A stretch of DNA of 32,000 nt from Mechercharimyces sp. CAU 1602. GTDB lineage: Bacteria; Bacillota; Bacilli; Thermoactinomycetales; JANTPT01. Location: assembly GCF_024753565.1 (NCBI RefSeq), contig NZ_JANTPT010000001.1:870513-902512 (forward strand), read 5' to 3'. Both the position numbers and the translations under genes were made by a program. This document shows, piece after piece, positions 1,295 through 32,000 of the stretch (position 1 is its first letter; every line of letters begins with the position of its first letter). The notes under the pieces are model-generated. The model worked only from the letters and a program-made list of their open reading frames with translations, searched no databases and was not told where the DNA came from.

Positions 1295-1314
1295 TAAAGG
1301 GGGAAAAGATAGTA

Positions 1315-2580: not shown

Positions 2581-2641
2581 GAATGGGGTCACTAAGAAGT
2601 AAGGCTTGCTTTGTATTATAAAGAGAAAGGGGGAATGAGCG

Positions 2642-5902: not shown

Positions 5903-6049
5903 AGATCAGCTCGTCTTGCTCATAAGCGATGGTCTCCTGTTGCATGTTGGGGAAGATGTAGGAATAAGTATTCATTGACATCCTACTGTTAGCGTGATCC
6001 GATGGTCCGCAGTTATAGTTACATTTTCTTTGGAGGAGGGCGTATCCAA

Positions 6050-9395: not shown

Positions 9396-9432
9396 TTACG
9401 TTAGATGTACACAAGTGAATAGCAGTACTGTA

Positions 9433-9577
9433 CATCCTTCGGGGCTGGGTGAAAATCCCGACCGGCGGTGATGGTAGCATCTGTTACCTCAGTCCGTGAC
9501 CCGTTATGCCTTTGTGTATGCGGTGGACCTGGTGAAAATCCGGGACCGACAGTGATAGTCTGGATGGGAGAAGGGTG
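9433..9577 (+). promoter_or_regulatory. FMN riboswitch (RFN element) aptamer
   Basis: CTTCGGGGCTGGGTGAAAATCCCGACCGGCGGTGAT...AGTCCGTGACCCG...GCGGTGGACCTGGTGAAAATCCGGGACCGACAGTGATAGTCTGGATGGGAGAAGG closely follows the conserved RFN core as remembered from the B. subtilis ribD leader. It sits directly upstream of ribD. Confidence 0.92.
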
Positions 9578-9737
9578 AACAGGAGCGGTCGCTAATAATA
9601 TTGCTGTAGGGCTTGAGGGAGACTACGGGTAGTTTTCTTTCGTGCGCTTTTACTAGTGATAATGATGCGAATAGATACGTTTGGCATGAAGGCTTCTTTG
9701 TGTTGGCGTAAAACATGACCCTCCTGATTCCCTCATG

Positions 9738-9768: not shown

Positions 9769-9788
9769 GATGTATGGGGAGGCTATAT

Positions 9789-10913: not shown

Positions 10914-11548
10914 TTGAAGAAGTGGGAACGGTACAGCACTTAGTGCAACAAGGGCAGACGATGAAATTGACGATTGCGTGTAAAGAGGTGTTAGATGGAG
11001 TAGCTCTTGGAGATAGCATCGCGATTAATGGTGTTTGTCTCACTGTGGTTCACTTCGATCATCGCTCGTTTACAGCGGACGTGATGCCAGAAACGATGAA
11101 ACATACACAGCTACATTCTTTACAGCGCGGTTCCTTCGTTAATTTGGAACGAGCGATGGCAGCTGGTGGACGTTTTGGTGGTCATTTCGTTCAAGGGCAT
11201 GTGGATGGCGTTGGTACCATCTTGGAACGTAAGCCTGTGGAAAATGCGGTTCTTTTCCGTCTTCAAGTACCGAGGGAATTAACCTCTTATATGATTGAAC
11301 GAGGCTCGATAGCCTTAAATGGGATTAGTTTAACATTATTTGAAGTTCGTGAGGATCAGATTGTGGTCTCCATCATTCCTCATACGCTAGCACAGACGCA
11401 ATTACAAACGGCGCGTGTAGGGGATCCGATTAATGTGGAGTGTGACATGATGGGGAAATATGTGCGCAAACAATTACAAATGTTGGTATCTGAATCTAGC
11501 GGTGAAGGGTTGACCAAGGAGAAATTGATCAACCTCGGATTCGCTTAA
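10898..11548 (+). CDS. ribE: Riboflavin synthase alpha subunit
   Basis: [10 protein letters not shown] is the hallmark N-terminus. The internal duplication ([11 protein letters not shown] / [10 protein letters not shown]) is present. The gene overlaps the ribD end by 16 nt. Confidence 0.93.
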
Positions 11549-11562
11549 AGGAGGGGTCGTTC

Positions 11563-12762
11563 ATGGGAGCTTTTCACCCGATAGAAGATGCGATCTACGA
11601 TCTAATGCAAGGGAAGATCGTGATTGTTGTCGATGATGAAGATCGTGAAAACGAAGGCGATTTTGTTGTCCTCGCAGAGAAGGCTACGCCAGAAGTGATC
11701 AACTTTATGATTACACATGGGCGTGGATTGGTCTGTACACCACTTACGGCTGAGCGAGCAGAAGAATTGGATTTGTCGTTAATGGTGAACCACAATACCG
11801 ATACACATGGTACCGCCTTTACCGTATCTGTTGATCACTATGATAGTACCACCGGAATATCTGCGTATGAGCGCTCAGCTACCATTCGTGCGCTGATAGA
11901 TCCGCAGGCACAACCGCGAGATTTCCGTCGTCCTGGACATGTGTTTCCTCTGATCGCCAAAGAAGGAGGCGTGTTACGGCGTGCAGGTCACACGGAAGCA
12001 TCGGTAGATTTGGCTCGGATGTGCGGGTCATATCCGGCTGCTGTGATATGCGAAGTGGTTAAAGAAGATGGTACGATGGCACGTGTGCCCGACCTGATGG
12101 AAATTGCAGATGAGCACGATCTTAAAATCATCACCATCCAGGACCTGATTCAGTATCGCAATAAAAAAGAGAAGTTGGTAGAGCGTGTCGCTTCCGTGCG
12201 GATGCCTACTCCTTTCGGTGAGTTTCAAGCGATCGGATATAAGAATGAATTGGATCAAAAAGAGCATGTGGCATTGGTAAAAGGAGAGATCGATCCGACG
12301 AAACCAGTGATGGTACGTGTTCATTCTGAGTGTTTGACCGGGGATGTGTTGGGTTCATATCGTTGCGATTGTGGACCCCAACTTCATACGGCGTTAGCGC
12401 AGATTAACGAAGAAGGTTCTGGCGTGCTCCTGTATATGAGGCAAGAGGGGCGCGGGATTGGACTGTTAAATAAATTACGTGCTTATGAGCTTCAAGAACA
12501 AGGTTATGATACGGTAGAAGCAAATGAGAAGTTGGGTTTTAAGGCTGACTTGCGTGAGTACGGTATCGGGGCCCAGATTTTGCGGGATCTTGGTGTGTGT
12601 CAGATGAGGCTACTAACCAATAACCCCCGCAAAATCACCGGTCTAAAGGGATATGGCTTAGAGGTGACGGAGGTATTACCGATTCAGTTGCCGGCCAATG
12701 TAGATAATGAACAGTACTTATATACGAAAAAAAGTAAACTGGGACATCTCTTACACTTTTAA
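11563..12762 (+). CDS. ribBA: Bifunctional 3,4-dihydroxy-2-butanone-4-phosphate synthase / GTP cyclohydrolase II
   Basis: The DHBP synthase half carries [11 protein letters not shown] and RAGHTEA. The GCHII half carries [15 protein letters not shown] and EGRGIGL. SD AAGGAGGGG is upstream. Confidence 0.93.
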
Positions 12763-12798
12763 AAGAAATAAAGAACATGACAAAAGGACGTGACAGTG

Positions 12799-13269
12799 AT
12801 GGGGAAAATTTATGAAGGTCATTTAGTTGGTAAAGGACTTCGCATTGGGATTGTAGTTGGACGGTTTAATGAATTTATCACGGGCAAATTGTTGGGTGGC
12901 GCTCAAGATGCACTTCGTCGTCATGGAGTAGATGAAGCAGATGTAGATATTGCATGGGTACCGGGGGCATTTGAAGTTCCTTTGATTGCGGATCAGATGG
13001 CATCTTCTGCGCGCTATGATGCCGTGATCACCTTAGGTGCTGTAATTCGTGGCTCTACGCCTCACTTCGATTATGTATGTAACGAAGCGGCAAAAGGGGT
13101 ATCTGCGGCCAACTTAAAACATGGTCTGCCTATCATCTTTGGTGTTCTTACAGTAGATACAATCGAACAAGCAATAGAGCGTGCAGGTACGAAAGCGGGT
13201 AACAAAGGTTGGGAAGCAGCGACTTCTGCTATAGAAATGGCCAACTTGACACGGGAATTGAACAACTAA
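12799..13269 (+). CDS. ribH: 6,7-dimethyl-8-ribityllumazine synthase
   Basis: [25 protein letters not shown] and [10 protein letters not shown] are lumazine synthase motifs. ATG 12799 aligns with known N-termini better than GTG 12790. Confidence 0.92.
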
Positions 13270-16759: not shown

Positions 16760-17001
16760 GTCGATATTTCCCAAGAAGAGGAGGGAGGCGTGCTGGGAAA
16801 AGGAAGGTTTGAATTGTATGAAGCACAACTATTATTGGATCCCGATTGTATGGAAAAATTTTCGTTTAAAATTAATAAACATCTTTTTGAATAGAAAGAT
16901 AGCTATTCTCACCCTATACATTACTAGGTTTCTCTCTTGAGAAAATAAGATCCGTCGATTGATTTTAAAGGGGAAAGACACAAAACAAGGAATATTTATC
17001 A

Positions 17002-17029
17002 TTGATTATTTCCCTTCTTCTATTAAACT
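17002..17029 (+). promoter_or_regulatory. Candidate sigma-A promoter of the RHS toxin gene (-35 TTGATT, 16-nt spacer, -10 TAAACT)
   Basis: Weak motif match in the AT-rich 360-nt intergenic region, about 45 nt upstream of ATG 17075. Speculative. Confidence 0.25.
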
Positions 17030-17074
17030 AGTCTAGTGCGACTATTTTATGAATAGAAGAGAGAGGAAACATCA

Positions 17075-20000
17075 ATGTCTAATAAGAGAAAACGACGATG
17101 GATACATAAAAGTTTCATGATCTTATTTGTATGTATATTCCTATTTACGAGTGTGGCCCCTGCTCCCGCAGCCTTAGCGGCAGGAAGCGCACCAACATCT
17201 ACAAACGATGCCTTATTCGGAGGGTCTTGGGCTCACGTATTTAGCTCGGTGTGGCTTCAGACCCGTGCGACTGGCGAAAAGGTGTTGGCGCAAGTAAAAG
17301 AAGTTTTTACAACGGAAGAGGAAGAGGATAAGGAGGGTGAAGAACCCACCGATCCGGAGGAGGGAAAGGAGGAAAGCGATGACCCACCTGAGATTGTAAA
17401 AGAACGGGAAGAAGAACGCGATGCCCATACGAAAGTGTTTGAGCTCGAGGATGGGCGCATGCAAAAAGAAGTGAGCGCCACCCCGGTTCACTATGAAAAT
17501 GAGAAAGGGGAGTGGGAAGAGATTCAACTGGGAGTAGAAGCTTCGGATGAGTCCAAGTTTGTCCTCTCGAATGAATCCAATACGTTCCAAACCCACTTTG
17601 GCAAAACAGCGGATCAATTGGTGCGTTTTGAACAAGGGGATCATCGGATTGAGATGAAAGCCCTGGAAGCGAGCGATGTGGTTCCAGAAGGAAAAGAGCA
17701 TCAGGTAGTGTTTAAACAGCTGTGGCAGCAGACCGATCTTTTGTATGACATTGGTCCAGATTCGCTCAAAGAGACGATTCGTATGAATAGTGTCCCGACG
17801 AACCCGGTCTATACCTTTGAGTTCACCTTGACAGGACTGTATGCAGAACAAAAAGAAGATGGTGCCATCGCCTTCTTTAGTAAGAAAGATGACACATTGG
17901 TCTACATGATACCGAAACCGTTTATGATGGACAGCAAGGAAGATCCAGAGTCTCCCTATGGGTTTTCATACAGTGAAAACGTGACGCAGACGATGGAAGC
18001 CGACGGCGATACATTAACGGTGACGTTGGCGGCAGATGAGGAATGGTTACAAGCGGAGGAACGGGTCTATCCGGTCTTGTTGGACCCCACCATTGTCCTT
18101 TCACCACCGGAAAAAGAGAGTCAAGATACGTATATTAATAGTGGAAACCCTGATCAGAACTATGATAACACTTGGCAAATGAAGGTGGGAACCAGTAGTG
18201 GCGGTTCCAAATACCGGGGACTGGTCCGCTTTAACCTAGACACCATCCCGGAAGGGGAGCGCTTAGATCAAGCGACCCTATCCCTGTATTATGATCAGGA
18301 TATCTATCTCCCTGAAGGGGGAGATACGTATAGCGTCCCAATCACGGTTCATAAAGTAAAAGAAGCGTGGGATCCCGATTCGGTGACGTGGAAGTACGCA
18401 GGCGAAGGAGATAACTGGAAGGATGGCGGGGCTTATGACGCGACGGCCCTCGATCAGGAAACGAAACAGGTTGGGCACACCAATCGCTGGCACCGCTTTA
18501 ATGTCACCTCCACCGTTCAGTCGTGGTTAAACAAAAGCAGTAAAAACTATGGGTTTTTGCTCAAAGCGAAAACGGAGTCCAACAATCATGGGGGCACGGT
18601 TTACGTCACAAGTGAACTCTATGATCCGACGATCCCCGTGCGACCGAAACTGACCCTGATCTATGGTCAACCCAGTGTCACAGTGAAAGAACCACAAAAG
18701 ATTCATAGCACAGGGGCAGAACTGGAGTGGTCCAAGTTTGCTGATGGGGAGGAGTTTGTGGAGTACCAGGTGCACCGCAGTACCGATCAGCAGTTTGTTC
18801 CCGATGCGTCTACGCTCGTCACTCCGATTGATGACCGCTTCGATATTCGCTTTACGGATACTACCGTGGAGCCCACCCCCATCGAAGATGAGAACCGTGT
18901 CGGTCAAATCTACTACTATATGGTGGCCGTGAAGACGAAAGATGGAAAATTGCATCCTTCCAGCACCGTAATGGCACAACTACCGAAAGCGGGACTTACA
19001 CGCGTCTTGGTGCGGGGTGCGGAAGATACAACCCTATCGAGTAAAAAGTCGAGTACGAACTTGAACGATATTGAGCGCTACCCTTGGCTTCAAGTGGGCA
19101 TTAAGGGGAACGAATATGGAACGACCCGCTCCGTGTTTGATTTTGACCTTAGTATGATCCCAGAAGATGCGCAAGTGTTTGATGCCCAGTTTCAGGTATG
19201 GGCATGGTACATGTGGCGTCCTCAAGGGGTGACGGGAAAAGCCAAATATCGACTGCATGAGTTGACTCACCGTTTTGATGAGTCCAGTGCGACCTGGAAA
19301 ATAGCGGCCAATGGAGATAACTGGACTGATGGTGGACAATATGACTCTACCGTCCTGGACGAAATCTCGGAAATATCGAATGACTCGCGCTGGCGAACGT
19401 TTGATGTGACCGGAGTTGTAGGGGATTGGGTTACAGGCAAAAAGAAAGAGTATGGTTTTATACTCAAGCAAGCCGATGAGGGCAGTGAGAAGAATAGTGA
19501 ACGAACCTTGTTCCTCAATAGCGAGGCACAAGAAACGTCCCTCCGTCCAACCCTTGAAGTGATCTACACTACACCGACGACGGAAAGCACCTATCATACG
19601 ACGGATACCCCACAGGTGATGGAGGGCGGGGAAACATATGACATCGATATCACCCTCACCAACACGACAGATCGTATCTGGAAACAAGGGGAGCAATCGG
19701 TGGCCTATCGCTGGGCCGACCTACAGACGCCGCAAGGAACCGATCGCGTCAATCTCCCTAAAGACGTGAAGCCGGGAGAGACGATTCGCTTGAAAGCGGA
19801 AGTGCATGCGCCGCAGTTGAAAGGAAAGGGCGCGTACCGCGAATCCCGGATGATCGAGTGGGACCTGATCGACCACAACGGGAAGTGGCTGTCCGAGCAT
19901 GCCCAAGGCATCCCTGCTCTGCAACAGGCGATTGTTGTGGAATCGAAGCCCGACGCCAAAAAGCTGGGTTTTGAACCGGATCGCGGCCTGATCACCGAGC

Positions 20001-26000: not shown

Positions 26001-28693
26001 GCGGCCAGAAGGTCGTCTTGACCGACAAAGCCGATGGCGTCGTCATCGCCGATAGCATCAAGCTAGTGGAGAAGGCGCCGATGAAGACGGATAAGAAAAC
26101 CTTCACCTACGATTACGACCTGAACGGCAACCTGACGGAGCTGGAAAGTCAGACGCCAGAAGCGGCAGAAGCCTACCGAATCGACTATAACGACCTCGGT
26201 CAAGTGGAAGCCCTGCAAAAAGTGGTGGGCGATCAGGTGCAGCAGACGGTCGGGTATGCCTATGATGTCAACGGTAACTTAACCAAGCGCGCGTATGGAG
26301 GCACCACGCAGACATACACCTATACCGAGCGCAACATGCTACAAGCGATCCAGGAACAAGGCAACGAGAGCGCCGACCCTCGCACGTGGTCGTATGCCTA
26401 CACCAAGCGGGGGCAAGTGAAGCAGACGAACGAGCCCAACGGCAACGTCACGCGCTTTGAGCACTACGCCGACGGCCTACTCAAAGCGAAGACCACGACC
26501 AAGGGCGATGGCACCGTGCTCAACCAGCACGAGCTCACCTACAACGAGAACGGTCACCGCATCGAAGAAGCCTTACAACTGCTGGACGCCGACGGGAACA
26601 AGGTGGAGAGCAACACGAAGTACGAATACGATCCCCGTGATCGCGTCACCTCGATGGTAAAAACGGGCGACAACCCGCTCACCGAGTCGGTGGTGTTAGA
26701 TGCCAACAGCAACATCGTTTCCCACACGCAAGATGGGAAAACGAAAACCTACACCTATGACCGCAATCGTATGATGACGCAGACCGCGGAGGGGAAGACC
26801 CAGCAGTACGACTACGACACCACCGGTCGCCTGCACACGGTTACCCAAGGGAAGCAGGTGGAAGAAAGCTACGCCTATGATGGCTTTGACCGCCTGAAGG
26901 AACACACCAAGCTTCAAGAAGATGGTACGCTGAACACATCTCAGTATACGTACGATGCGTTTGACCGGACAATGAGTAAAACCGGCAATGCAGGGACGGC
27001 AGAGGAGACAACCACCGACTTCCACTACCTGGGCTTGTCGGAGGAGATACTAAGCGAAGAAGTGGCCGGCAAGATTACGCGCTCCTACACGTACGCTCCC
27101 TGGGGACAGCGTCTCTCCATGACGCATCATGAAAAAGGAGAAACCTCCTACTACGGCACCAACACCCGCGGCGACGTGGAGATGTTGTATGATGAGAAGG
27201 GGAACGTCCGCGGCACCTACGGCTACACGATGTACGGCGAAGACCAACAAAGCGCCTTCACCGGAGTAGACCAACCGGGGAATGCCCTGTACAACCCGTA
27301 TCGTTACACCCAAAAACGCTGGGACGCAGATACCAACAGCTACGACCAGGGTTTCCGGAATTACAACCCAAGTCTAGGCCGCTTCCACACACGGGATATG
27401 TATAGCGACGCGGCACAGGATATGGGACTGGCGATGGGTTTAGCGACAAACAGTCGCTACGCATTCGCAGGAGGTAATCCGGTATCGTATAGCGAATTGG
27501 ATGGTCATATTCCGGTAAAAGAAGATACCAGGACGGCGATGAAGGATATCCAGGATGCAGGGTTTGACTATTCTCCAAGCAAGGGATTAACGCCAAAGCC
27601 AAATCCAAAGCCTAGGACAAAGCCGAAACCGAAACCATCTCCATCAACGAGCAGCAAATCGAGCAAACCATGTTATCAGAGTAAAACTAACTATGGTTGT
27701 GGTAGCACTAAGCCAAATGCAGCTGACAAAGTCATTATTGGAATGGGTACGCAGTTTGCCGATGGAGTGACCGGATTATGGGCTTGTGGTAGTGACGTGG
27801 CAGGTTGCTATAGTAGCACGGCTGATTTTTACAAGTTGGCATGGAATGATCCTACAGCAGCAGTAAGTCAGACTTGGAATGGTTCTGGGATTGTAGAAGA
27901 CTGGCGAGATGGCAATTATGGAGGTTCTATTGGAAGAACGATAACTTCAGCATTACCATTAGTAGCAGCCCGCAAGGCATTGAAAACACCTGAAATGTGT
28001 TTTGTTGCTGGGACATTGATTCTTACCTCAGATGGTGAAAAGCCCATCGAAGAAATCGAAGTCGGGGATAAAGTTCTCTCCAAAAACGAGAAAACAGGAG
28101 AGATGGAATACAAAGAAGTCACCCAACTCTTCCAGCGTGAAGTGGACGAGATTTACGAAGTTCATGTTGATGGAGAAATGATTGAAACCACGGATGAACA
28201 TCCTTTCTGGGTGAAAGGTCAAGGCTGGATGAGTGCACAAGATCTCCAGACAGGAGATGAGCTGGAAACCAGTGAAGGTGATTTCCTTTCAGTGGAGAAA
28301 GTAATCCGTAAGAAGCAGGAAAACCCCGTCAAGGTGTACAACTTTGAGGTAGCGGATTTCCACACGTATTTTGTTTCGGATCTGCATGTATTTGTGCATA
28401 ACAAGTGTGTAGTAGGTGATAAAGATGCATTTGTTCCGGAAGAACATTGGGAGAAAAAAGCTGAGCACTTTGGGACACCAGGAACCCAGTATGACCACTA
28501 CAGGTATTACAAAGGTAAGTGGGAAGAATCTAGAGTCATTTATGACTTTGCAGGTAGACAACAATATAGAGTAGATCTTGCCGATCACAGCATGCCTGAA
28601 TCACATTCTATTCCTCATTTACATGAATACAAGTATGATGATCCGGGATATGGAATAAAAGGAAAAGAGTTCGTTTATAATTTCTGGGAATAA
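17075..28693 (+). CDS. Secreted RHS/YD-repeat polymorphic toxin, 3872 aa. Order: signal peptide, 2x DNRLRE-like domain, FN3, Ig-like domain, YD repeats interrupted by 5 golvesin-C-like domains, RHS core, linker, Hint, C-terminal toxin
   Basis: A single uninterrupted ORF with SD GAGAGGAAA 8 nt upstream. The Sec-type signal is KRKRRW plus a hydrophobic core plus ALA|AG. There are many YD repeats (YTYD..GN, YEYD..GN, Y.YD..GR). The RHS core end reads YYGTNTRGDVEMLYDEKGNVRGTYGYTMYGE...NPYRYTQKRWDADTNSYDQGFRNYNPSLGRFHTRDMY...GGNPVSYSELDGH. Then follow the Hint domain and a variable tip. Confidence 0.95.
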   Translation: MSNKRKRRWIHKSFMILFVCIFLFTSVAPAPAALAAGSAPTSTNDALFGGSWAHVFSSVWLQTRATGEKVLAQVKEVFTTEEEEDKEGEEPTDPEEGKEESDDPPEIVKEREEERDAHTKVFELEDGRMQKEVSATPVHYENEKGEWEEIQLGVEASDESKFVLSNESNTFQTHFGKTADQLVRFEQGDHRIEMKALEASDVVPEGKEHQVVFKQLWQQTDLLYDIGPDSLKETIRMNSVPTNPVYTFEFTLTGLYAEQKEDGAIAFFSKKDDTLVYMIPKPFMMDSKEDPESPYGFSYSENVTQTMEADGDTLTVTLAADEEWLQAEERVYPVLLDPTIVLSPPEKESQDTYINSGNPDQNYDNTWQMKVGTSSGGSKYRGLVRFNLDTIPEGERLDQATLSLYYDQDIYLPEGGDTYSVPITVHKVKEAWDPDSVTWKYAGEGDNWKDGGAYDATALDQETKQVGHTNRWHRFNVTSTVQSWLNKSSKNYGFLLKAKTESNNHGGTVYVTSELYDPTIPVRPKLTLIYGQPSVTVKEPQKIHSTGAELEWSKFADGEEFVEYQVHRSTDQQFVPDASTLVTPIDDRFDIRFTDTTVEPTPIEDENRVGQIYYYMVAVKTKDGKLHPSSTVMAQLPKAGLTRVLVRGAEDTTLSSKKSSTNLNDIERYPWLQVGIKGNEYGTTRSVFDFDLSMIPEDAQVFDAQFQVWAWYMWRPQGVTGKAKYRLHELTHRFDESSATWKIAANGDNWTDGGQYDSTVLDEISEISNDSRWRTFDVTGVVGDWVTGKKKEYGFILKQADEGSEKNSERTLFLNSEAQETSLRPTLEVIYTTPTTESTYHTTDTPQVMEGGETYDIDITLTNTTDRIWKQGEQSVAYRWADLQTPQGTDRVNLPKDVKPGETIRLKAEVHAPQLKGKGAYRESRMIEWDLIDHNGKWLSEHAQGIPALQQAIVVESKPDAKKLGFEPDRGLITEPTGAGTALTANLFEGNTMFDYTPFANPSRGFATAPQMTYNSRDFSDSLVGPGWSFALTNMMRLGTPSNSKGVKMVNGKIESGKVFMIDGDGTQYSFTYDKGKKKFVGPKGIHLSLKLHSTKDKARMWKITAKDGSKYYFDDKGYVSETTDRNGIKMTYTYESRRIGNHNVKLLRYLTDTEGRRTIKVEYYSSKETSNLKIQQQVKRLTDISGYKVEFAYDHEGRLTQITEGAGSKEERKYQLSYEFNLLRTITDPKGNTTKAYYDDGGHLTKIIDRQGEETTIHYRTTLDDKEQPVTLVTDPMGRQMATTFNDQGKPIEVVNANNEKTRYEWDDELNLVKQIAPNDATATWTYDDNGNVLTYKSPLYHQQQQAQQQAAEEANVLEKLWDKVTGAVEKAPLVGTAGTTGKGYTQYAYDYREEGQVADLVQSVSPEGRVTTYEYNDEGHLLKVHAPQGNTLSSYDDAKKRYRVETSGNYTTTYTYHKGGLGLLESVKDAKGRVSRYTDYDANGQPQTITDPAGNVTRLHYGKRGEVLQVTDALGNTSTYTYDTFLRPLTSKVPKDASAGEYITIPAPVYDENDNIVKAVSPNGAHVTYTYNKNDWVTSATLPKDSEKGPIRKITYQYDKMGNLIRETQPKGNHQEGVITLDNRDDAHIASGIWGTSTNMPGYRGEDYQYNRVGGGDTFTWNFQLPEDGEYRVSVNYAQARDRAIDAPYTLKTKDGDVTKRVDQTTNGGTWVDLGIHPFASGANQIVQSDDASEGTYVIADAIRIEKVNEGEEKKETADGSTQYIYDRLNRVQAVVNSQGHRVTYEYDQVGNVTQVTEPKGVASDDPDDYRTTYEYDVNGRAIKETDALGNSIAFAYSPDGLLTRVTDEEGNVTTASYDQNGNLIEMRTPHDDGENVTQYVYDQVGNLTETITPRGVATSAKGDYTHKTIYDELDRVKEVIYPRDPNSQDPREREEQKLSYEYDPLSRITDIIAPASEGQALRNQTKLTYFDNGWIKETTDPHQIKTRYQYNDLGQTTQRTLLGEDGTKTREMTWDYFPDGKVKKEVDIGENRDIVVVESTDSKVEVDGIWNKSGVCTWDVSSFQDGTTNDDAEIYLTSTDPVRQSSVTFYQKEGGEWKEIGEDPAFVEKSRVVPARGEVKAVIKGPARGQVTYEMHEYDPDNPDEYIGKCTVDTSLRNVAGDGNQSFTWNVTPPQDGEYDVYAQYVSGSDRATDAPYTIHFEGGTDVKKVNQQESGSQWVWLGTYPFRAGSGGKVTLTDRANGTVSADSVRLVRRGEKEARFVDEDEDEGEAVDATTQLEKLTTTCTWKDAGAYADGPKEDPVHMAELYLKKDQADGKESHAVFYRGDKGKWTKLGEDTFTEQSAIVSFPETGELKVEITQPVGGESTFHLQEYDPDDNGENPDEYVGVCYADTKEPEQKWTFSDEITSVWIVDDADAFKDGTNGQAEFFLKKSRYDGKKTKAVFYEGRDGNWKKIGEDDGFTLKSSSVNYTPGGKLKIVVTQPLGGVSSLNLYEDDTEGLEDVHVASHALPTVLGDGFRWKGRGTGEGTFTWKLKTEESGEYTVYAHAAGGPTSATNAPYTIHHADGKTEKRVNQQAYAGEWVKLGTYRFDAGTSYPLVLSDEANGKVSADGIKMVWAGPTGAVIDNTDDAHVKAEGDWTERDDVTTECTWDGIDAYHDGTAPPLKAELYLEKDQADGQSTSVTFYDRSGDEWKKIGEDPDFLEKSAVASSEGKEAKAEITHAVDSTSTYHLMEYDPDDPVENEDEHIGSCDAQRPEGENYAQVEKGDGSSTFTWNLDLKQNGAYAIYVKGLKHSAYATDAPYTIHHESGTDTVNVNQRERGDEWTLLGTYPFQKGENPRVVLSNKANGTVVADSLKIVKAEPRELVFDNAEASANAGGSGWTTSSNVPGYYGKDYLWNEEGSGADTITWNLDIPKTMEYTVYARYLSYKDRASDAPYTIYHADGKKTVDVNQQERGSEWVELGTYSFDKGSGQKVVLTDKADGVVIADSIKLVEKAPMKTDKKTFTYDYDLNGNLTELESQTPEAAEAYRIDYNDLGQVEALQKVVGDQVQQTVGYAYDVNGNLTKRAYGGTTQTYTYTERNMLQAIQEQGNESADPRTWSYAYTKRGQVKQTNEPNGNVTRFEHYADGLLKAKTTTKGDGTVLNQHELTYNENGHRIEEALQLLDADGNKVESNTKYEYDPRDRVTSMVKTGDNPLTESVVLDANSNIVSHTQDGKTKTYTYDRNRMMTQTAEGKTQQYDYDTTGRLHTVTQGKQVEESYAYDGFDRLKEHTKLQEDGTLNTSQYTYDAFDRTMSKTGNAGTAEETTTDFHYLGLSEEILSEEVAGKITRSYTYAPWGQRLSMTHHEKGETSYYGTNTRGDVEMLYDEKGNVRGTYGYTMYGEDQQSAFTGVDQPGNALYNPYRYTQKRWDADTNSYDQGFRNYNPSLGRFHTRDMYSDAAQDMGLAMGLATNSRYAFAGGNPVSYSELDGHIPVKEDTRTAMKDIQDAGFDYSPSKGLTPKPNPKPRTKPKPKPSPSTSSKSSKPCYQSKTNYGCGSTKPNAADKVIIGMGTQFADGVTGLWACGSDVAGCYSSTADFYKLAWNDPTAAVSQTWNGSGIVEDWRDGNYGGSIGRTITSALPLVAARKALKTPEMCFVAGTLILTSDGEKPIEEIEVGDKVLSKNEKTGEMEYKEVTQLFQREVDEIYEVHVDGEMIETTDEHPFWVKGQGWMSAQDLQTGDELETSEGDFLSVEKVIRKKQENPVKVYNFEVADFHTYFVSDLHVFVHNKCVVGDKDAFVPEEHWEKKAEHFGTPGTQYDHYRYYKGKWEESRVIYDFAGRQQYRVDLADHSMPESHSIPHLHEYKYDDPGYGIKGKEFVYNFWE
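27958..28411 (+). repeat. Hint-coding repeat, copy 1 (in the expressed RHS gene)
   Basis: 454 nt, collinear with 29721..30175 (455 nt, the extra A) and, from 28034 on, with 31433..31810 (378 nt each). Confidence 0.9.
27998..28402 (+). other. Hint (pretoxin-HINT / bacterial intein-like) domain inside the RHS protein
   Basis: The domain starts at Cys (CFVAGTLILTSDGEKPIEEIEVGDKV), has a TxxH-type block (IETTDEHPFW) and ends ...HVFVHN. It spans about 135 aa with no endonuclease insert. Confidence 0.85.
28403..28693 (+). other. Variable C-terminal toxin tip (CT1), family not recognised
   Basis: KCVVGDKDAFVPEEHWEKKAEHFGTPGTQYDHYRYYKGKWEESRVIYDFAGRQQYRVDLADHSMPESHSIPHLHEYKYDDPGYGIKGKEFVYNFWE. It lies immediately after the Hint HN. 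Sequence diverges completely from the two downstream cassettes at this point. Confidence 0.7.
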
Positions 28694-28766: not shown

Positions 28767-29360
28767 ATGGAAAATTTTTTGGATGTTAAACCCCTCGATT
28801 GCTTTGTAGATGTAGACTCACAAGAAAAACTTGATGACTTCTTTAAATTAACACATAATCTTCATGATGGCTTAATTAAAGAGATGCATATCATAAATGA
28901 AGCCTATGTAGATAGTGATCTGTCAATGTCGGCTGATTTCCAATATAACCTCAGGATTCTCATTCAAAAGCAATGGAAAAATCCATCTGCGATAGAGATA
29001 TTACTTGGGAACGTTAGCAAATTAGATTTGGTGGAGTCCAACTATTTGTCTAATGCATTTGGTGAATACAAGGAAAATAAGATGAATGGGAAAAAAACTA
29101 TTAAACTCGATTTTGATTGTAATAGAATAACTTGTTCAAGGATGCTATATCGTGATGCTTCCAATTGGATGGGTAGAGAGAGTCGCTTTGGAGAAGAAAT
29201 TGTTCTATCCTCTCTAATGCCTGTAGAAGATTTAGGAGAGGGATGGTACATGTGTACAAATTGCACACATACTTGGAAGCCAAATAATCGATTAATCAAA
29301 CGTTGCCCAAATTGTGGGGGTAAGAACAGTGGATATGGATGGATAAGTAGCCCGAGTTAG
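28767..29360 (+). CDS. Putative cognate immunity protein for CT1, with C-terminal CxxC...CxxC zinc ribbon
   Basis: It is the first gene after the toxin stop, on the same strand, AT-rich, with no signal peptide. The C-terminal motif is CTNCTHTWKPNNRLIKRCPNCGG. The role is inferred from position only. Confidence 0.6.
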   Translation: MENFLDVKPLDCFVDVDSQEKLDDFFKLTHNLHDGLIKEMHIINEAYVDSDLSMSADFQYNLRILIQKQWKNPSAIEILLGNVSKLDLVESNYLSNAFGEYKENKMNGKKTIKLDFDCNRITCSRMLYRDASNWMGRESRFGEEIVLSSLMPVEDLGEGWYMCTNCTHTWKPNNRLIKRCPNCGGKNSGYGWISSPS

Positions 29361-29725: not shown

Positions 29726-30175
29726 TAGCAGCCCGGAAGTTATTGAAAACACCTGAAATGTGTTTTGTTGCTGGGACATTGATTCTTACCTCTGAAGGCG
29801 AAAAGCCCTTCGGAGAAATCGAAATTGGGGATAAAATTCTCTCCAAAAATGAGAAAGTAGGAGAGATGGAATACAAAGAAGTCACCCAACTCTTCCAGCG
29901 TGAAGTGGATGAGATATACGAAGTTCATGTAGATGGAGAGGCCATTGAAACCACGGAAGAGCATCCTTTCTGGGTAAAAGGTCAAGGCTGGGTGAGTGCA
30001 CATGACCTTCAGTCAGGAGATGAGCTGGCAACTAGTGAAGGTGAATTTCTTTCAGTAGAGAAAGTAATCCGTAAGAAGCAGGAAAAACCCCGTCAAGGTG
30101 TACAACTTTGAGGTAGTGGATTTCCATACGTATTTTGTTTCGAATCTGCATGTATTTGTGCATAATCAGTGTGTA
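29721..30175 (+). repeat. Hint-coding repeat, copy 2 (orphan cassette 1)
   Basis: Starts at ATTAGTAGCAGCCCG and ends at ...GTGCATAATCAGTGTGTA. Differences from copy 1 are scattered and mostly synonymous or conservative. Confidence 0.9.
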
Positions 30176-30481
30176 TTAGATAAAGGGGCTCCAACTCATG
30201 TATACTTGGGTTTGAAAAATGGAGAAATTACTTATGTGGGAATTGCTAAAGATCCAGCCAAACGTGCTCAACAGCATGGAGATAGATTTGATTTGTTAAC
30301 ATCAATTACTACTGAACCATTGAGTAGAAGGAGGGCTCGAGCAATTGAACAGTCATTCATCAATGATAATCCTCACTTCTCGATTAAAATTAATAGCACC
30401 AGCCTGAGAAGATCATGGTATGATGATGCAGTTGAATGGGGAGATAATTGGAGAAGGAAAAATGGGTATAAGACAGATTAA
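29743..30481 (+). pseudogene. Orphan cassette 1: Hint domain plus GIY-YIG-like nuclease toxin (CT2), split by a +1 frameshift
   Basis: Track ORFs 29743..30111 and 30098..30481 are the two halves. Together they parallel residues LKTPEMCFVAG...VFVHN of the main gene. The A5 run at 30083-30087 replaces the A4 run of the main gene (28320-28323) and shifts the frame. There is no SD or promoter, and the frame has no ATG upstream of the Hint Cys other than the one immediately preceding it. Confidence 0.8.
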
Positions 30482-30569: not shown

Positions 30570-31058
30570 ATGGATCATTTGGTTAAGATGATTCCCTCAA
30601 GAAAAAGACCAAAGAGAGGGGACGTGTTTGTTATTCAGCCGAAAGAAGGCATCTATGCTTTTGGGCTTGTTGTTCGTATTAAGATTCCAAGTGAAAATTT
30701 GATGATTAATGGTATGAGCCTTGTATATGTATACAAGTTTCTTTCATTAAAAAAGGAAGTTCCAAAGGATCTGATGTCGCAAGATCTCCTTTTTCCACCC
30801 CAAATTATTAACAACCAAGGATGGTTAAAGGGTTACTTTCAAACAATAGGGTTCTTGGATATAACTGAATTTATGAAAAGAGATTATGGTTTTTGGGATA
30901 TTACTATAAAGAAAATAGTCGATGAAGAAGGAAATCCAATAAATCATAAACCTAAATATATCGGTGATTATGGAGTCGGAAGCTATGGATCGATTTCATA
31001 TGATGTGAAGCGTGCTTTAGATGAATTTCCTGAGTTGTTAGAGGGAATTAAGGGATAA
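30570..31058 (+). CDS. Putative immunity protein for the GIY-YIG-like orphan toxin
   Basis: A 162-aa ORF directly downstream of CT2 on the same strand, AT-rich, with SD AAAGGGG 9 nt upstream and no signal peptide. The role is inferred from position. Confidence 0.55.
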   Translation: MDHLVKMIPSRKRPKRGDVFVIQPKEGIYAFGLVVRIKIPSENLMINGMSLVYVYKFLSLKKEVPKDLMSQDLLFPPQIINNQGWLKGYFQTIGFLDITEFMKRDYGFWDITIKKIVDEEGNPINHKPKYIGDYGVGSYGSISYDVKRALDEFPELLEGIKG

Positions 31059-31414: not shown

Positions 31415-32000
31415 GGCAGGCGACTTGCAGAGGGCGAAAAACCCATTGAAGAGGTCGAAGTGGGGGACAAAGTTTTCTCCAAAAACGAGAAAACAGGAGA
31501 GATGGAATACAAAGAAGTCACCCAACTCTTCCAGCGTGAAGTGGACGAGATTTACGAAGTTCATGTCGATGGAGAAATGATTGAAACCACGGATGAACAT
31601 CCTTTCTGGGTGAAGAGTAGAGGATGGACGAAAGCGAAGAATCTCCAGTCAGGAGATGAGCTAGAAACCAGTGAGGGAGAAATTCTTCCGGTTGAGCAGG
31701 TGGTTCGCAAGAAGAAGGAAAACCCCGTCACAGTGTATAACTTTGAGGTAGCGGATTTCCACACGTATTTTGTTTTGGATATGCACATCTTTGTGCATAA
31801 CAAGTGTGTAGACGAAGCGAAAATGAGTGGTCAATTACGTGAAGCAGCGGCAGATAAGGGGAATTTTGGAATTGGTGAAGGCAGTTCTAATGAAGCTGAT
31901 TTGATGGGTAAAGCATGGGTTGGCCCTGGATATAAAATAGCTAGTGATGGTAAAACTCATGTGAGTTTGGATGGTATGAGGCAGTATCGTCCACCAAGTT
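31415..32000 (+). CDS. Orphan cassette 2: 5'-truncated Hint domain (lacks Cys1) plus third toxin tip (CT3), continuing past the right edge
   Basis: Absent from the ORF track because there is no ATG start and it runs off the edge. The frame is open from 31415: GRRLAEGEKPIEEVEVGDKVFSKNEKTGEMEYKEVTQLFQREVDEIYEVHVDGEMIETTDEHPFWVKSRGW...IFVHNKCVDEAKMSGQLREAAADKGNFGIGEGSSNEADLMGKAWVGPGYKIASDGKTHVSLDGMRQYRPPS... It is probably silent as it stands. Confidence 0.7.
31433..31810 (+). repeat. Hint-coding repeat, copy 3 (orphan cassette 2, 5'-truncated)
   Basis: Contains a 139-nt tract (31476..31614) that differs from copy 1 (28077..28215) at a single position. Ends at ...GTGCATAACAAGTGTGTA, exactly as copy 1 does. 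Confidence 0.9.

What the first reader, a model, noticed from the sequence alone, without database searches (positions are those of the whole stretch)
17075..28693. 3872-aa secreted RHS toxin with an elaborate N-terminal adhesion/recognition region
A single ORF encodes the following parts in order:
- Sec signal peptide.
- Acidic stretch (EEEEDKEGEEPTDPEEGKEESDD, about 17310-17400).
- Two DNRLRE-like domains (about 18115-18665 and 19000-19570) separated by an FN3-like module (about 18670-18985).
- An Ig-like module (about 19580-19945).
- The YD-repeat shell, then the RHS core, the Hint domain and the toxin tip.
The protein is roughly two to three times the length of classical Rhs/WapA proteins. 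The extra mass is all putative surface- or ligand-binding domains, which suggests an unusually elaborate targeting apparatus for contact-dependent or secreted interbacterial toxin delivery.
Basis: partly seen in the sequence, partly recalled or inferred. Interest (0 to 1): 0.7.

Follow-up and report, generated by a model that had tools for sequence, protein, structure and literature searches.

The report
Giant RHS toxin with decorated shell
This is a real, intact 3872-residue secreted RHS (WapA-type) toxin gene of a Mechercharimyces bacterium; it exceeds its own 2,800-3,100-residue relatives mainly because sugar-binding-type domains, some carrying a further rare domain nested inside them, are inserted into the toxin-holding shell, not only at the N-terminus.

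Summary
Confirmed: signal peptide, acidic stretch, two DNRLRE domains, YD repeats, Rhs core, PT-HINT and a 96-aa toxin tip. The FN3-like and Ig-like calls fall below Pfam thresholds.

These are five Golvesin_C domains (517 bits), which match the terminal module of a xanthan lyase (PDB 6F2P). There are also four copies of an unannotated ~100-aa beta-sandwich that I call the X module.

- One Golvesin_C is a lineage-specific insertion in a shell turn.
- The other four occupy a hot spot that holds one copy in Salinithrix and Nocardioides relatives and three in Marininema.
- The X modules lie inside Golvesin_C loops, giving three levels of nesting.
- Among 1.84 billion representative proteins, X is found only in Mechercharimyces and Marininema.

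Downstream lie a candidate immunity gene and two orphan PT-HINT/toxin cassettes.

Verdict: a WapA-class polymorphic toxin of a database-visible but apparently undescribed family, with an unusually expanded shell decoration. It is a new variant of a known kind. Toxin activity and ligand specificity remain unknown.

The parts
17075..28693 (+). Whole ORF, 3872 aa, RHS/WapA-class polymorphic toxin precursor
17075..17179 (+). Sec-type signal peptide (aa 1-35, predicted cleavage after A-L-A)
   Evidence: By inspection; conserved n/h/c regions in orthologues. No signal-peptide predictor was available.
17312..17380 (+). Acidic stretch EEEEDKEGEEPTDPEEGKEESDD (aa 80-102)
   Evidence: poorly conserved in orthologues
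17402..18109 (+). Conserved N-terminal domain of unknown family (aa 110-345)
   Evidence: 50-54% identical to Salinithrix and Marininema orthologues; collinear with the Nocardioides protein from aa 108; no Pfam hit and no PDB hit
18122..18622 (+). DNRLRE domain 1 (also matches CBM96 and Disaggr_repeat), aa 350-516
   Evidence: NF033679; CBM96 60.2 bits vs cut-off 26. The orthologues carry a Golvesin_C nested in this domain at the point corresponding to window aa ~459-470.
18668..18985 (+). FN3-like module (aa 532-637), sub-threshold
   Evidence: PF00041 E 0.08, 13.6 bits vs cut-off 25; no PDB hit with a 3-sequence profile; FN3-like sequence pattern by eye only
19022..19579 (+). DNRLRE domain 2 (aa 650-835)
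   Evidence: Disaggr_repeat 39.6 bits vs cut-off 33.9; CBM96 24.4 bits vs 26
19580..19945 (+). Ig-like module (aa 836-957), sub-threshold
   Evidence: N_BRCA1_IG E 0.008, 17.1 bits vs cut-off 28; no meaningful PDB hit
20030..20287 (+). DUF6531-like region preceding the shell (aa 986-1071), just under the cut-off
   Evidence: 23.6 bits vs cut-off 24.1
20288..21919 (+). YD-repeat shell, segment 1 (aa 1072-1615)
21938..22339 (+). Golvesin_C copy G1 (aa 1622-1755), a lineage-specific insertion in a shell turn
   Evidence: Salinithrix, Marininema and Nocardioides orthologues have only a ~7-residue loop at this point.
22355..23164 (+). YD-repeat shell, segment 2 (aa 1761-2030)
23165..26089 (+). Hot-spot array (aa 2031-3005): four Golvesin_C domains (G2-G5), three of them carrying nested X modules
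   Evidence: The same site holds 1 Golvesin_C in Salinithrix and Nocardioides and 3 in Marininema.
23246..23542 (+). X module 1 (aa 2058-2156), nested in G2
23936..24262 (+). X module 2 (aa 2288-2396), nested in G3
   Evidence: (AF2 pLDDT 85, pTM 0.80)
24305..24616 (+). X module 3 (aa 2411-2514; lacks the two flanking Cys), nested in G3
25028..25348 (+). X module 4 (aa 2652-2758), nested in G4
25685..26089 (+). Golvesin_C copy G5 (aa 2871-3005), uninterrupted; best match to the C-terminal module of xanthan lyase 6F2P
26090..27223 (+). YD-repeat shell, segment 3 (aa 3006-3383)
27224..27508 (+). Rhs-associated core (aa 3384-3478), ending ...GGNPVSYSELDGH
   Evidence: TIGR03696 43.2 bits vs cut-off 32.5; alignment with orthologues
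27509..27997 (+). Pro/Lys-rich linker followed by a Cys-containing pre-toxin region (aa 3479-3641)
   Evidence: aa 3553-3778 are 46% identical to Salinithrix; no Pfam hit
27998..28402 (+). PT-HINT self-processing domain (aa 3642-3776): starts CFVAGT, has a TxxH block, ends VHN
   Evidence: DNA homology among the three cassettes ends just after VHN(K/Q)CV
28403..28693 (+). Toxin tip (aa 3777-3872) of unknown activity
   Evidence: No Pfam hit. One homologue among 5.8 billion clusters, inside a Lysinibacillus PT-TG toxin locus. The AF2 model is unusable, pLDDT 54.
28767..29360 (+). Candidate immunity gene, 197 aa, with a C-terminal zinc ribbon
   Evidence: Assigned by position; only zinc-ribbon Pfam hints; annotated as hypothetical protein MCS1350867; unrelated to the gene next to the Lysinibacillus homologue
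29743..30481 (+). Orphan cassette 1: complete PT-HINT plus a different toxin tip (weak GIY-YIG-like hit), broken by a +1 A frameshift near 30076-30091
30570..31058 (+). Imm26-family immunity gene paired with orphan cassette 1
   Evidence: PF15428 53.2 bits vs cut-off 23.3
31428..32000 (+). Orphan cassette 2: 5'-truncated PT-HINT plus a third toxin tip that runs off the window

Best explanation
The gene encodes a Sec-exported, WapA-class RHS polymorphic toxin of Mechercharimyces sp. CAU 1602 (Thermoactinomycetaceae).

Shown here:
- The protein follows an architecture shared with 2,800-3,100-aa proteins of Salinithrix, Marininema and Nocardioides. In order: signal peptide, conserved N-domain, DNRLRE (CBM96-like), FN3-like, DNRLRE, Ig-like, DUF6531-like region, a single ~1,200-aa YD shell, Rhs core, linker, PT-HINT, variable toxin.
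- The shell sequence of the family is interrupted about two thirds of the way along by a Golvesin_C domain. This domain type is homologous to the terminal module of xanthan lyase PXL; PXL's binding modules are reported to bind xanthan.
- In this protein that hot spot has grown to four Golvesin_C domains, and a fifth has been inserted in an upstream shell turn.
- Three of the hot-spot copies carry one or two nested copies of a ~100-aa beta-sandwich, the X module. X occurs otherwise only in a few secreted proteins of Mechercharimyces and Marininema. Its closest copies are in a DUF3238 protein of the same genome.
- The nested unit runs from Cys to Cys. It is circularly shifted relative to the domain register seen in those other proteins.

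Inferred:
- The nine inserted domains project from the outside of the cocoon.
- Together with the two DNRLRE domains they give multivalent binding to envelope polysaccharides or other surface ligands of neighbouring cells, or of the producer's own wall.
- The Rhs core aspartyl protease and the PT-HINT domain (Cys1 ... TxxH ... His-Asn) free the ~96-aa tip from the ~390-aa C-terminal cargo held in the shell.
- The 197-aa downstream protein protects the producer.
- The downstream orphan PT-HINT/toxin/immunity cassettes can replace the tip by recombination within the conserved ~390-nt PT-HINT coding sequence.

Single shell with insertions:
- The YD segments at aa 1072-1615, 1761-2030 and 3006-3383 sum to ~1,190 aa, the size of one solved Rhs shell. 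This comparison rests on chain lengths of ~1,065-1,426 aa listed.
- These segments are collinear with orthologues whose shell is interrupted by only one Golvesin_C.
- G1 replaces a 7-residue loop present in all three orthologues.

Hot-spot copy number:
- The site holds 1 copy in Salinithrix and Nocardioides, 3 in Marininema and 4 in this window.

Nesting of X in Golvesin_C:
- When X is removed, G2 and G4 align end to end with intact Golvesin_C copies.

Nature and distribution of X:
- AF2 predicts a beta-sandwich with pLDDT 85 and pTM 0.80.
- No Pfam hit and no PDB fold match at E<=1e-3.
- Only 43 hits at E<=1e-3 among 1.84e9 representatives. The genuine ones come from Mechercharimyces sp. CAU 1602, Marininema halotolerans and M. 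mesophilum.
- The register shift is shown by profile coordinates.

Golvesin_C:
- It matches 6F2P residues 890-1038 at E 1e-18.
- PXL's terminal modules are reported to bind xanthan (PMC10881899, PMC11002231).
- RHS_repeat and Golvesin_C co-occur in ~25 further proteins from Streptomyces, Nocardioides and metagenomes.

Polymorphic-toxin behaviour:
- The orthologues carry different tips, including Tox-HNH-EHHH in Salinithrix.
- The window holds three PT-HINT DNA copies at 87-94% identity, and the homology stops at the toxin boundary.
- An Imm26 gene is present.
- The relatives also have orphan PT-HINT copies downstream.

Precedents:
- A CBM and a lectin domain are inserted in the YD shell of mosquito SGS1 (PMC9935623).
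- S. suis WapA-CT1 is Sec-dependent and carries a DNRLRE domain (PMC12704120).
Against: - No binding, secretion, processing or toxicity was tested, so domain functions rest on family names.
That the inserts project outward is inferred from collinearity and from SGS1.
- The Rhs core motif is diverged: TRDMYSD ... SELDGH, about 34 residues apart, rather than DPxG-x18-DPxG. Autoproteolysis there is therefore not assured.
- The +1 residue after the Hint His-Asn is Lys rather than a nucleophile, so only cleavage is expected, not splicing.
- The toxin tip has no recognisable fold or family.
- The 197-aa protein is called immunity by position only. It is unrelated to the gene beside the tip's only homologue.
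- No wall-anchoring motif (LPXTG, SLH or LysM) was detected. Whether the protein stays on the producer's surface or is released is unknown.
Confidence: 0.7

Rival explanations
1. One reading: the protein is exceptional because of an elaborate N-terminal adhesion region (DNRLRE, FN3, DNRLRE, Ig), and this region accounts for all the extra mass.
For: The N-terminal ~1,070 aa do contain two DNRLRE domains that pass threshold. They also contain two plausible beta-sandwich modules with weak hits.
Against: The same N-terminal region is present, 47-61% identical, in the 2,999- and 3,126-aa orthologues. Those orthologues even carry an extra Golvesin_C in it. The ~750-1,060 extra residues of this protein map to aa 1622-1755 and to the expanded array at 2031-3005, inside the YD region.
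Confidence: 0.1
2. The inserted Golvesin_C/X array and the DNRLRE domains serve mainly to hold the toxin on the producer's own cell wall or extracellular matrix, replacing the missing LysM, SLH or sortase anchors. On this reading they do not recognise target cells.
For: No anchoring motif was detected. In S. suis WapA the DNRLRE/LysM N-terminal fragment is assigned to cell-wall association (PMC12704120). CBM-type domains bind polysaccharides whatever their source.
Against: Copy number at the hot spot varies widely between close relatives (1, 3 and 4 copies). In Actinomycetota, Golvesin_C travels with the exchangeable C-terminal cassette. Both features look more like diversifying, target-facing behaviour than a housekeeping anchor. 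None of this is decisive.
Confidence: 0.25
3. The protein is aimed at eukaryotes (amoebae, nematodes or other grazers) in the manner of Tc toxins or SGS proteins, rather than at bacteria.
For: Shell-inserted carbohydrate-binding domains have so far been described for mosquito SGS1 (PMC9935623). X modules occur in a Marininema protein whose C-terminal region looks like an aerolysin-type pore former, by eye only. X and its relatives give weak C2-like hints.
Against: A small gene follows immediately downstream. Orphan PT-HINT/toxin cassettes are present, one paired with an Imm26 gene, and PT-HINT itself is typical of interbacterial polymorphic toxin loci. Orthologues carry HNH-type nuclease tips. 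The C2 hints fail thresholds.
Confidence: 0.08
4. The giant ORF is an artefact (assembly collapse or expansion of repeats) or a decaying pseudogene.
For: It contains internal repeats, and its GC content (50-56%) differs from the flanks. The exact 3872-aa sequence was not found in the protein collection.
Against: There is no stop or frameshift in 11.6 kb. The repeats are old and diverged, with DNA repeats of at most 68 nt at 65-84% identity. Every module keeps its family's conserved residues. Collinear intact orthologues exist in three genera. The protein collection returned no hit longer than ~1,064 aa, which probably explains the miss.
Confidence: 0.03

Closest known systems
WapA-type RHS toxins of Gram-positive bacteria (Bacillus subtilis WapA; Streptococcus suis WapA-CT1, 3,158 aa, PMC12704120)
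   Same: Sec signal peptide, N-terminal surface-association region with a DNRLRE domain, DUF6531, a YD shell annotated as two Rhs fragments in S. suis, Rhs core, a variable C-terminal toxin, a downstream immunity gene and truncated orphan copies.
   Different: The window protein has no LysM or other recognised wall-binding repeats. It has two DNRLRE domains, a PT-HINT before the toxin, and five Golvesin_C plus four X modules inside the shell sequence. The S. suis paper does not describe shell-inserted domains in the passages I read.
Unpublished orthologues: Salinithrix halophila (L001, 2,999 aa), Marininema halotolerans (L002, 3,126 aa), Nocardioides sp. (L017, 2,808 aa)
   Same: Collinear over almost the whole length (31-64% identity). 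Same N-terminal architecture, a Golvesin_C at the same shell hot spot, PT-HINT in Salinithrix, and orphan cassettes downstream.
   Different: They hold 1-3 Golvesin_C at the hot spot, not 4. They have no insertion at the G1 site and no X modules. Salinithrix and Marininema instead have a Golvesin_C nested in DNRLRE domain 1. In Nocardioides the orphan cassettes begin at the Golvesin_C and include the last third of the shell.
Mosquito salivary protein SGS1 (cryo-EM structure, PMC9935623)
   Same: A YD cocoon whose outer surface is decorated by Ig-like beta-sandwich carbohydrate-binding domains (a CBM and a lectin-CRD). [quoted passage not shown]
   Different: SGS1 has single, unrelated inserted domains, beta-propellers and a helical cargo, and is a eukaryotic protein of bacterial ancestry. 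Here the insert is a tandem array of a different family (Golvesin_C) carrying a further nested domain, in a bacterial toxin with immunity genes.
Tc toxin TcB/TcC cocoons, T6SS Rhs effectors and teneurins (PDB hits 7Q97, 8QJA, 8H8A, 8CP6, 9IFO)
   Same: YD-repeat shell, Rhs core and an encapsulated C-terminal toxin.
   Different: Their accessory domains (beta-propeller, PAAR/VgrG adaptors, NHL, FN-plug) differ, and their delivery depends on TcA, the T6SS or a membrane anchor. None is reported with CBM-type arrays inside the shell sequence.
Terminal xanthan-binding module of Paenibacillus nanensis xanthan lyase PXL (PDB 6F2P; CBM84 or the adjoining unclassified module, PMC10881899)
   Same: Golvesin_C copy G5 aligns with 6F2P residues 890-1038 at E 1e-18. 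This gives the domain family a solved beta-sandwich representative from a polysaccharide-binding context.
   Different: The setting is a polysaccharide lyase, not a toxin. Ligand specificity cannot be transferred, and I could not determine which of PXL's two binding modules residues 890-1038 correspond to.

Membership tests
RHS/YD-repeat polymorphic toxin | Multiple YD/RHS repeats forming a shell-length region | tested here: met
   PF05593 267 bits in 9 stretches; TIGR01643 167 bits; matches to solved Rhs shells 7Q97, 8QJA and 8H8A. The YD segments total ~1,190 aa.
RHS/YD-repeat polymorphic toxin | Rhs-associated core domain closing the shell | tested here: met
   TIGR03696 43.2 bits vs cut-off 32.5, aa 3384-3478, full model length
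RHS/YD-repeat polymorphic toxin | Aspartyl-protease motif DPxG-x18-DPxG for C-terminal self-cleavage | tested here: inconclusive
   The sequence reads ...RFHTRDMYSD...(~34 residues apart)...NPVSYSELDGH. Asp residues are present at both positions, but the Pro/Gly context and the spacing differ. The same variant is conserved in Salinithrix and Marininema.
RHS/YD-repeat polymorphic toxin | Variable C-terminal toxin differing between orthologues, followed by a small immunity gene | tested here: met
   The tips differ: unknown family here, Tox-HNH-EHHH in Salinithrix, and another sequence in Marininema. A 197-aa ORF starts 74 nt downstream. Immunity function itself is not testable here.
WapA class (Sec-dependent Gram-positive RHS) | N-terminal Sec signal peptide; no T6SS or T7SS adaptor domains | tested here: met
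   Signal peptide by inspection. No PAAR, VgrG, LXG or WXG hits in Pfam or NCBIfam. No dedicated predictor was run.
WapA class (Sec-dependent Gram-positive RHS) | Recognised cell-wall binding repeats or anchor | tested here: not met
   No LysM, SLH, CWB or LPXTG hit
PT-HINT (pretoxin Hint, PF07591) | Domain match plus catalytic residues (N-terminal Cys, TxxH block, C-terminal His-Asn) | tested here: met
   112.5 bits vs cut-off 27.7; E 2e-31 to BIL domain 2LWY. The sequence shows C3642 (CFVAGT), TTDEHPF and VHN3776. Cleavage activity is not testable.
DNRLRE domain (NF033679) / CBM96 | Model score above the curated cut-off | tested here: met
   NF033679 205.6 bits vs cut-off 34, two stretches. 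CBM96 Pfam: copy 1 scores 60.2 bits vs 26; copy 2 scores 24.4 vs 26, just under. Carbohydrate binding is not testable.
Golvesin_C (PF25275) | Model score above the cut-off; complete domain | tested here: met
   516.9 bits vs cut-off 31.6, 5 stretches. G1 and G5 are uninterrupted. G2-G4 are complete only when the nested X modules are removed.
Fibronectin type III (PF00041) | Model score above the cut-off | tested here: not met
   13.6 bits vs cut-off 25, E 0.08, partial match; nothing in the PDB with a profile
Ig-like (N_BRCA1_IG, PF16158) | Model score above the cut-off | tested here: not met
   17.1 bits vs cut-off 28, E 0.008; no relevant PDB hit
C2 domain (PF00168), considered for the X module | Model score above the cut-off, or a clear fold match | tested here: not met
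   Window X modules have no C2 hit. Relatives score 21.1-21.8 bits vs cut-off 22. Only 1 of 9 modules hits at E<1. Foldseek's best hits are C2 domains, but at E 5e-3 and TM ~0.2.
YD shells decorated by inserted binding domains (as in SGS1) | Non-YD globular domains encoded within the YD-repeat sequence of one shell | tested here: met
   Collinearity with orthologues shows clean insertions at two points of a continuous shell sequence.
YD shells decorated by inserted binding domains (as in SGS1) | The inserted domains sit on the outer surface of the cocoon | not tested

The most novel reading that the evidence does not exclude
In this family the RHS shell may act as an evolvable display scaffold. 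On this reading:
- A conserved hot spot, which in Actinomycetota is also the boundary of the exchangeable C-terminal cassette, accepts Golvesin_C modules in variable number.
- In Mechercharimyces those modules have in turn captured a clade-restricted domain from another secreted protein of the same genome. The captured unit is circularly permuted and runs from Cys to Cys.
- The result is three levels of nesting: X inside Golvesin_C inside the YD shell.
- The array, rather than the N-terminal region, sets which cells the toxin binds.
Probability: 0.3. Interest if true: 0.6.

Novelty: new variant of a known kind. Interest (0 to 1): 0.42.

Why it matters
How Sec-exported Gram-positive RHS/WapA toxins recognise and enter target cells is poorly understood, and attention has gone to their N-terminal regions.

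- This locus, with its relatives, shows that a whole family places carbohydrate-binding-type domains inside the shell sequence at one conserved point. The family spans Thermoactinomycetaceae, Streptomyces, Nocardioides and some Proteobacteria.
- The copy number at that point changes between close relatives.
- I found no paper in the held library linking Golvesin_C to RHS proteins.
- If the array determines target range, it gives a tractable handle for specificity studies through domain swaps between 1-, 3- and 4-copy orthologues.
- It is also a natural example of domain display on a YD cocoon.
- The X module is a clean case of a clade-restricted domain being recruited, by permutation, into a nested position.
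- The toxin tip belongs to a family with only two known members and no predicted activity.

These are incremental rather than field-changing points.

Tried and rejected
1. The search for homologous proteins with the whole 3872-aa protein timed out.
2. The same tool with X1+G2 (aa 2030-2270) returned nothing. A later search returned no hit longer than ~1,064 aa. The index therefore seems not to return giant proteins, so 'no hit' there is not evidence of rarity.
4. The toxin tip yielded nothing:
   - No Pfam hit.
   - The only PDB sequence hints are aprataxin/HIT at E 0.2-0.3, which is not significant.
   - AF2 with a 2-sequence alignment gave pLDDT 54.
   - Foldseek on that model gave nothing below E 2.7.
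   Activity is left unknown.
5. I tried to place the N- and C-terminal shell segments on solved Rhs shells by phmmer. The repeats align out of register, with both segments hitting 7Q97 residues ~435-808. That test was uninformative, and I relied on collinearity with orthologues instead.
6. Profiles of the FN3-like, Ig-like and N-terminal domains against PDB sequences gave nothing useful.
7. The C2-domain reading of the X module is a recurrent but sub-threshold hint. It was rejected as a membership claim.
8. The flanking genes show no synteny with the relatives' loci, so context gives no extra information.
9. The candidate immunity protein shows no similarity to the gene next to the Lysinibacillus homologue of the tip.

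Full report

The window contains one uninterrupted ORF at 17075-28693 on the + strand, encoding 3872 aa.

Confirmed features:
- The N-terminus (MSNKRKRRWIHKSFMILFVCIFLFTSVAPAPAALA|AG) has the n-, h- and c-regions of a Sec signal peptide. I judged this by inspection. The same pattern is conserved in two orthologues.
- The acidic stretch lies at aa 80-102.
- Two DNRLRE domains: NF033679 scores 205.6 bits against a cut-off of 34, at aa ~350-516 and ~650-835. Copy 1 also scores 60 bits on CBM96.
- RHS/YD repeats: PF05593 267 bits, TIGR01643 167 bits.
- Rhs-associated core at aa 3384-3478: 43.2 bits against 32.5.
- PT-HINT: 112.5 bits.

Below threshold:
- The FN3-like call (13.6 bits against a cut-off of 25).
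- The Ig-like call (17.1 bits against 28).
Profiles built from three orthologues found nothing relevant among PDB sequences. These modules remain plausible but unproven.

**2.

The strongest Pfam hit on the whole protein is Golvesin_C (PF25275), at 516.9 bits in five stretches. Tiled self-BLAST and HMMs built from the copies place them at aa 1622-1755 (G1), 2142-2263 (G2), 2500-2627 (G3), 2744-2870 (G4) and 2871-3005 (G5).

Interleaved with G2-G4 are four copies of a ~100-aa unit that has no Pfam hit. They lie at aa 2058-2156, 2288-2396, 2411-2514 and 2652-2758 and are 45-51% identical to X2, the reference copy. I call this unit the X module.

All of this lies between YD-repeat segments at aa 1072-1615, 1761-2030 and 3006-3383. 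The claim that the extra mass is N-terminal is wrong.

**3. One shell with insertions, not several genes or shells**

A scan of one genome per species found close relatives:
- Salinithrix halophila: L001, ORF of 2,999 aa.
- Marininema halotolerans: L002, ORF of 3,126 aa.
A look-up of a database hit added a Nocardioides protein of 2,808 aa (L017).

All three are collinear with the window protein from about aa 108 to the Rhs core.

The insertion sites are clean:
- At the G1 site the three relatives have a 7-residue loop between '...EPKGN' and 'D(Y/F)xTxYxYD...'. G1 is therefore a clean, lineage-specific insertion in a shell turn.
- At the second site, after '...W-Y-PDGK', Salinithrix and Nocardioides have one Golvesin_C, Marininema has three, and the window has four plus the X modules.

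The three YD segments of the window sum to ~1,190 aa. That is about the size of a single solved Rhs shell, judging from the chain lengths.

Assembly collapse is unlikely. The longest DNA repeats within the gene are 43-68 nt at 65-84% identity.

**4. Nesting**

When the X modules are removed, G2 and G4 align end to end with uninterrupted Golvesin_C copies from this protein and from the relatives. The N-terminal strand ((V/I)xDNxD...GxWxxS) precedes X. The domain resumes after X at GxxY...G.GxxTFTW.

G3 carries two X modules, one on each side of the Trp strand.

The architecture therefore has three levels: X inside Golvesin_C inside the YD shell.

The family seems prone to nesting. In Salinithrix and Marininema a Golvesin_C lies inside DNRLRE domain 1, at a point where the window has only a short loop.

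**5. What the inserted domains are**

*Golvesin_C.* Copy G5 aligns with residues 890-1038 of the Paenibacillus nanensis xanthan lyase PXL (6F2P) at E 1e-18. Reviews state that PXL carries a CBM84 xanthan-binding module and a further terminal, unclassified xanthan-binding module (PMC10881899; also PMC11002231). I could not tell which of the two this region corresponds to. Golvesin_C is thus homologous to a module from a polysaccharide-binding context. Specificity cannot be transferred.

*DNRLRE.* This domain overlaps CBM96, an alginate-binding family (the title and abstract of PMC9971899, listed).

*The X module.*
- AF2 on the four-copy alignment predicts a compact eight-strand beta-sandwich, with pLDDT 85 and pTM 0.80.
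- Foldseek against the PDB found nothing at E<=1e-3. The top hits are C2 domains at TM ~0.2.
- An exhaustive HMMER search of 1.84 billion representative proteins found 43 hits at E<=1e-3 and 4 at E<=1e-10.
- The five genuine hits come from Mechercharimyces sp. CAU 1602, Marininema halotolerans and M. mesophilum. Three are DUF3238 proteins with C-terminal tandem arrays.
- No X module occurs in the Salinithrix, Marininema or Nocardioides RHS proteins, nor in 55 other RHS hits.
- The best-matching outside copies (39-44% identity) are in the DUF3238 protein of the same genome. This suggests the domain was captured from within the genome.
- In all the non-RHS proteins the arrays begin at profile position 41 and end at about 37-39. 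Their natural domain register is therefore circularly shifted relative to the Cys-to-Cys unit in the RHS protein. This is what one expects if a unit was copied from the middle of a tandem array. It also places the termini next to each other, as a nested domain requires.
- Sub-threshold C2 hits recur in the relatives (21-22 bits against a cut-off of 22). Only 1 of 9 modules hits at E<1. I treat C2-likeness as a lead only.

**6. The C-terminal end and the locus**

After the core (...GGNPVSYSELDGH) comes a Pro/Lys-rich linker, then a Cys-containing region that is conserved with Salinithrix.

PT-HINT follows at aa 3642-3776. It matches the bacterial intein-like domain 2LWY at E 2e-31. It has Cys1, a TxxH block and a terminal His-Asn.

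The 96-aa tip follows PT-HINT.
- It has no Pfam hit.
- It has one homologue among 5.8 billion clusters: a 140-aa Lysinibacillus protein, 66% identical, inside a PT-TG polymorphic toxin locus.
- No usable structure model could be made (pLDDT 54).
- Its activity is unknown.

The Rhs core motif is diverged in this clade, so self-cleavage at the core is plausible but not assured.

Downstream features:
- A 197-aa ORF with a C-terminal zinc ribbon, which is a candidate immunity gene by position only.
- A second PT-HINT copy with a different tip that gives a weak GIY-YIG-like hit. It is broken by one extra A.
- An Imm26 gene.
- A third PT-HINT copy, truncated at its 5' end, with a third tip that runs off the window.

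The three PT-HINT coding copies are 87-94% identical. The homology stops just after VHN(K/Q)CV. This is the classic arrangement for toxin replacement by recombination. The relatives also have orphan PT-HINT copies downstream.

In Nocardioides, and in many Actinomycetota hits, the orphan cassettes are ~800-1,040 aa long. They begin at or just before the Golvesin_C ('MxWxYxPDGKL...'). There the hot spot doubles as the cassette boundary.

**7. Source and context**

Exact matches of four neighbouring proteins identify the genome as Mechercharimyces sp. CAU 1602, on a 2.15-Mb contig. This organism belongs to the Thermoactinomycetaceae.

Upstream are housekeeping genes: the rib operon with an FMN riboswitch, scpA, scpB, and the sporulation genes ytfI and ytfJ. 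A terminator-like hairpin follows ytfJ, and a weak promoter-like site precedes the RHS gene.

The flanks are not syntenic with the relatives' loci.

**8. Mechanism**

*Shown:* architecture, insertion sites, nesting, domain families, cassette structure and distribution.

*Inferred:*
- Sec export.
- The DNRLRE and shell-borne Golvesin_C/X domains give multivalent binding to surface polysaccharides or other ligands.
- The ~390-aa C-terminal cargo is held in the cocoon and freed by the core protease and the Hint domain.
- The 197-aa protein confers immunity.
- Toxins are switched by recombination in the PT-HINT sequence.

The precedent for binding domains on the outside of a YD shell is mosquito SGS1. 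Its CBM and lectin-CRD are formed by segments inserted in the YD sequence (PMC9935623).

The main rival is that the array anchors the toxin to the producer's own wall, since no LysM, SLH or LPXTG was found. An anti-eukaryote role is less likely, given the immunity genes and orphan cassettes.

**9. Comparison and novelty**

This is a member of the WapA-type RHS class, with one defining feature (the DPxG motif) inconclusive and no recognised wall anchor.

The sub-family with Golvesin_C in the shell is visible in databases: about 25 proteins combine PF05593 and PF25275. I found no paper in the held library linking golvesin and Rhs.

The window protein is an extreme variant of that sub-family. It has an expanded hot spot, a second insertion site and nested, clade-restricted X modules.

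Rating: new variant of a known kind, of moderate interest. The size is 1.2-1.4 times that of its own relatives. From my own knowledge it is about 1.7 times B. subtilis WapA and about 2.8 times E. coli Rhs.

Noticed in passing
window 29743-30481, 30570-31058, 31428-32000: There are two orphan PT-HINT/toxin cassettes downstream of the main gene. The first is complete but broken by a +1 A frameshift, and is followed by an Imm26 gene. The second lacks the 5' end of its PT-HINT and carries a third toxin tip that runs off the window.
   Followed up: yes
window 17000-28000 versus flanks: The RHS gene body is 50-56% GC. The flanks, the toxin tip and the orphan cassettes are 36-49% GC. The family is abundant in high-GC Actinomycetota, so horizontal origin is possible, but an amino-acid composition bias was not excluded.
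   Followed up: no
window 21467-24361 (-): A 964-aa antisense ORF lies inside the RHS gene. It is probably a by-product of codon bias in the repeat region. It was not scanned against any library.
   Followed up: no
window 9431-9579 (+): An FMN riboswitch (RF00050, 111.7 bits) lies upstream of the ribD-ribE-ribBA-ribH operon at 9774-13269.
   Followed up: yes
window 605-5856 (+): A response regulator, a histidine kinase, an ABC ATPase and an 844-aa FtsX-type permease lie together. The arrangement resembles peptide-antibiotic sensing/detoxification modules of the Bce type, a resemblance drawn from memory.
   Followed up: no
window 6002-8155 (+): A 717-aa protein carries DUF7948, five SBBP beta-propeller repeats and a C-terminal collagen-like triple-helix repeat. 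It is probably a surface or spore-associated protein.
   Followed up: no
P0005 (Marininema halotolerans, 358 aa); P0001/P0169 and P0004/P0170 (Mechercharimyces sp. CAU 1602): Outside the RHS protein, the X module occurs only in small secreted proteins of this clade. In P0005 it precedes a Ser/Thr-rich amphipathic region that, by eye, resembles the insertion hairpin of aerolysin-type pore formers, though there is no Pfam hit. In the DUF3238 proteins it forms C-terminal tandem arrays in a circularly shifted register.
   Followed up: partly
L001 aa ~459-592 and L002 aa ~466-600 of the orthologous proteins (equivalent to window aa 459-470): The Salinithrix and Marininema orthologues carry a Golvesin_C nested inside DNRLRE domain 1. 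The window protein has only a short loop at that point.
   Followed up: yes
L017 10001-12655 and 13407-16103; proteins P0045-P0062: In Nocardioides and many other Actinomycetota the orphan RHS cassettes are ~800-1,040 aa long. They start at 'MxWxYxPDGKL' followed by Golvesin_C. The shell hot spot therefore coincides with the exchangeable-cassette boundary there, whereas in the window the boundary is the PT-HINT.
   Followed up: partly
window ~21010-21170 (aa ~1313-1365): A Gln-rich, probably helical stretch (YHQQQQAQQQAAEEANVLEKLWDKV...) interrupts the first YD segment. It was not compared with the relatives.
   Followed up: no
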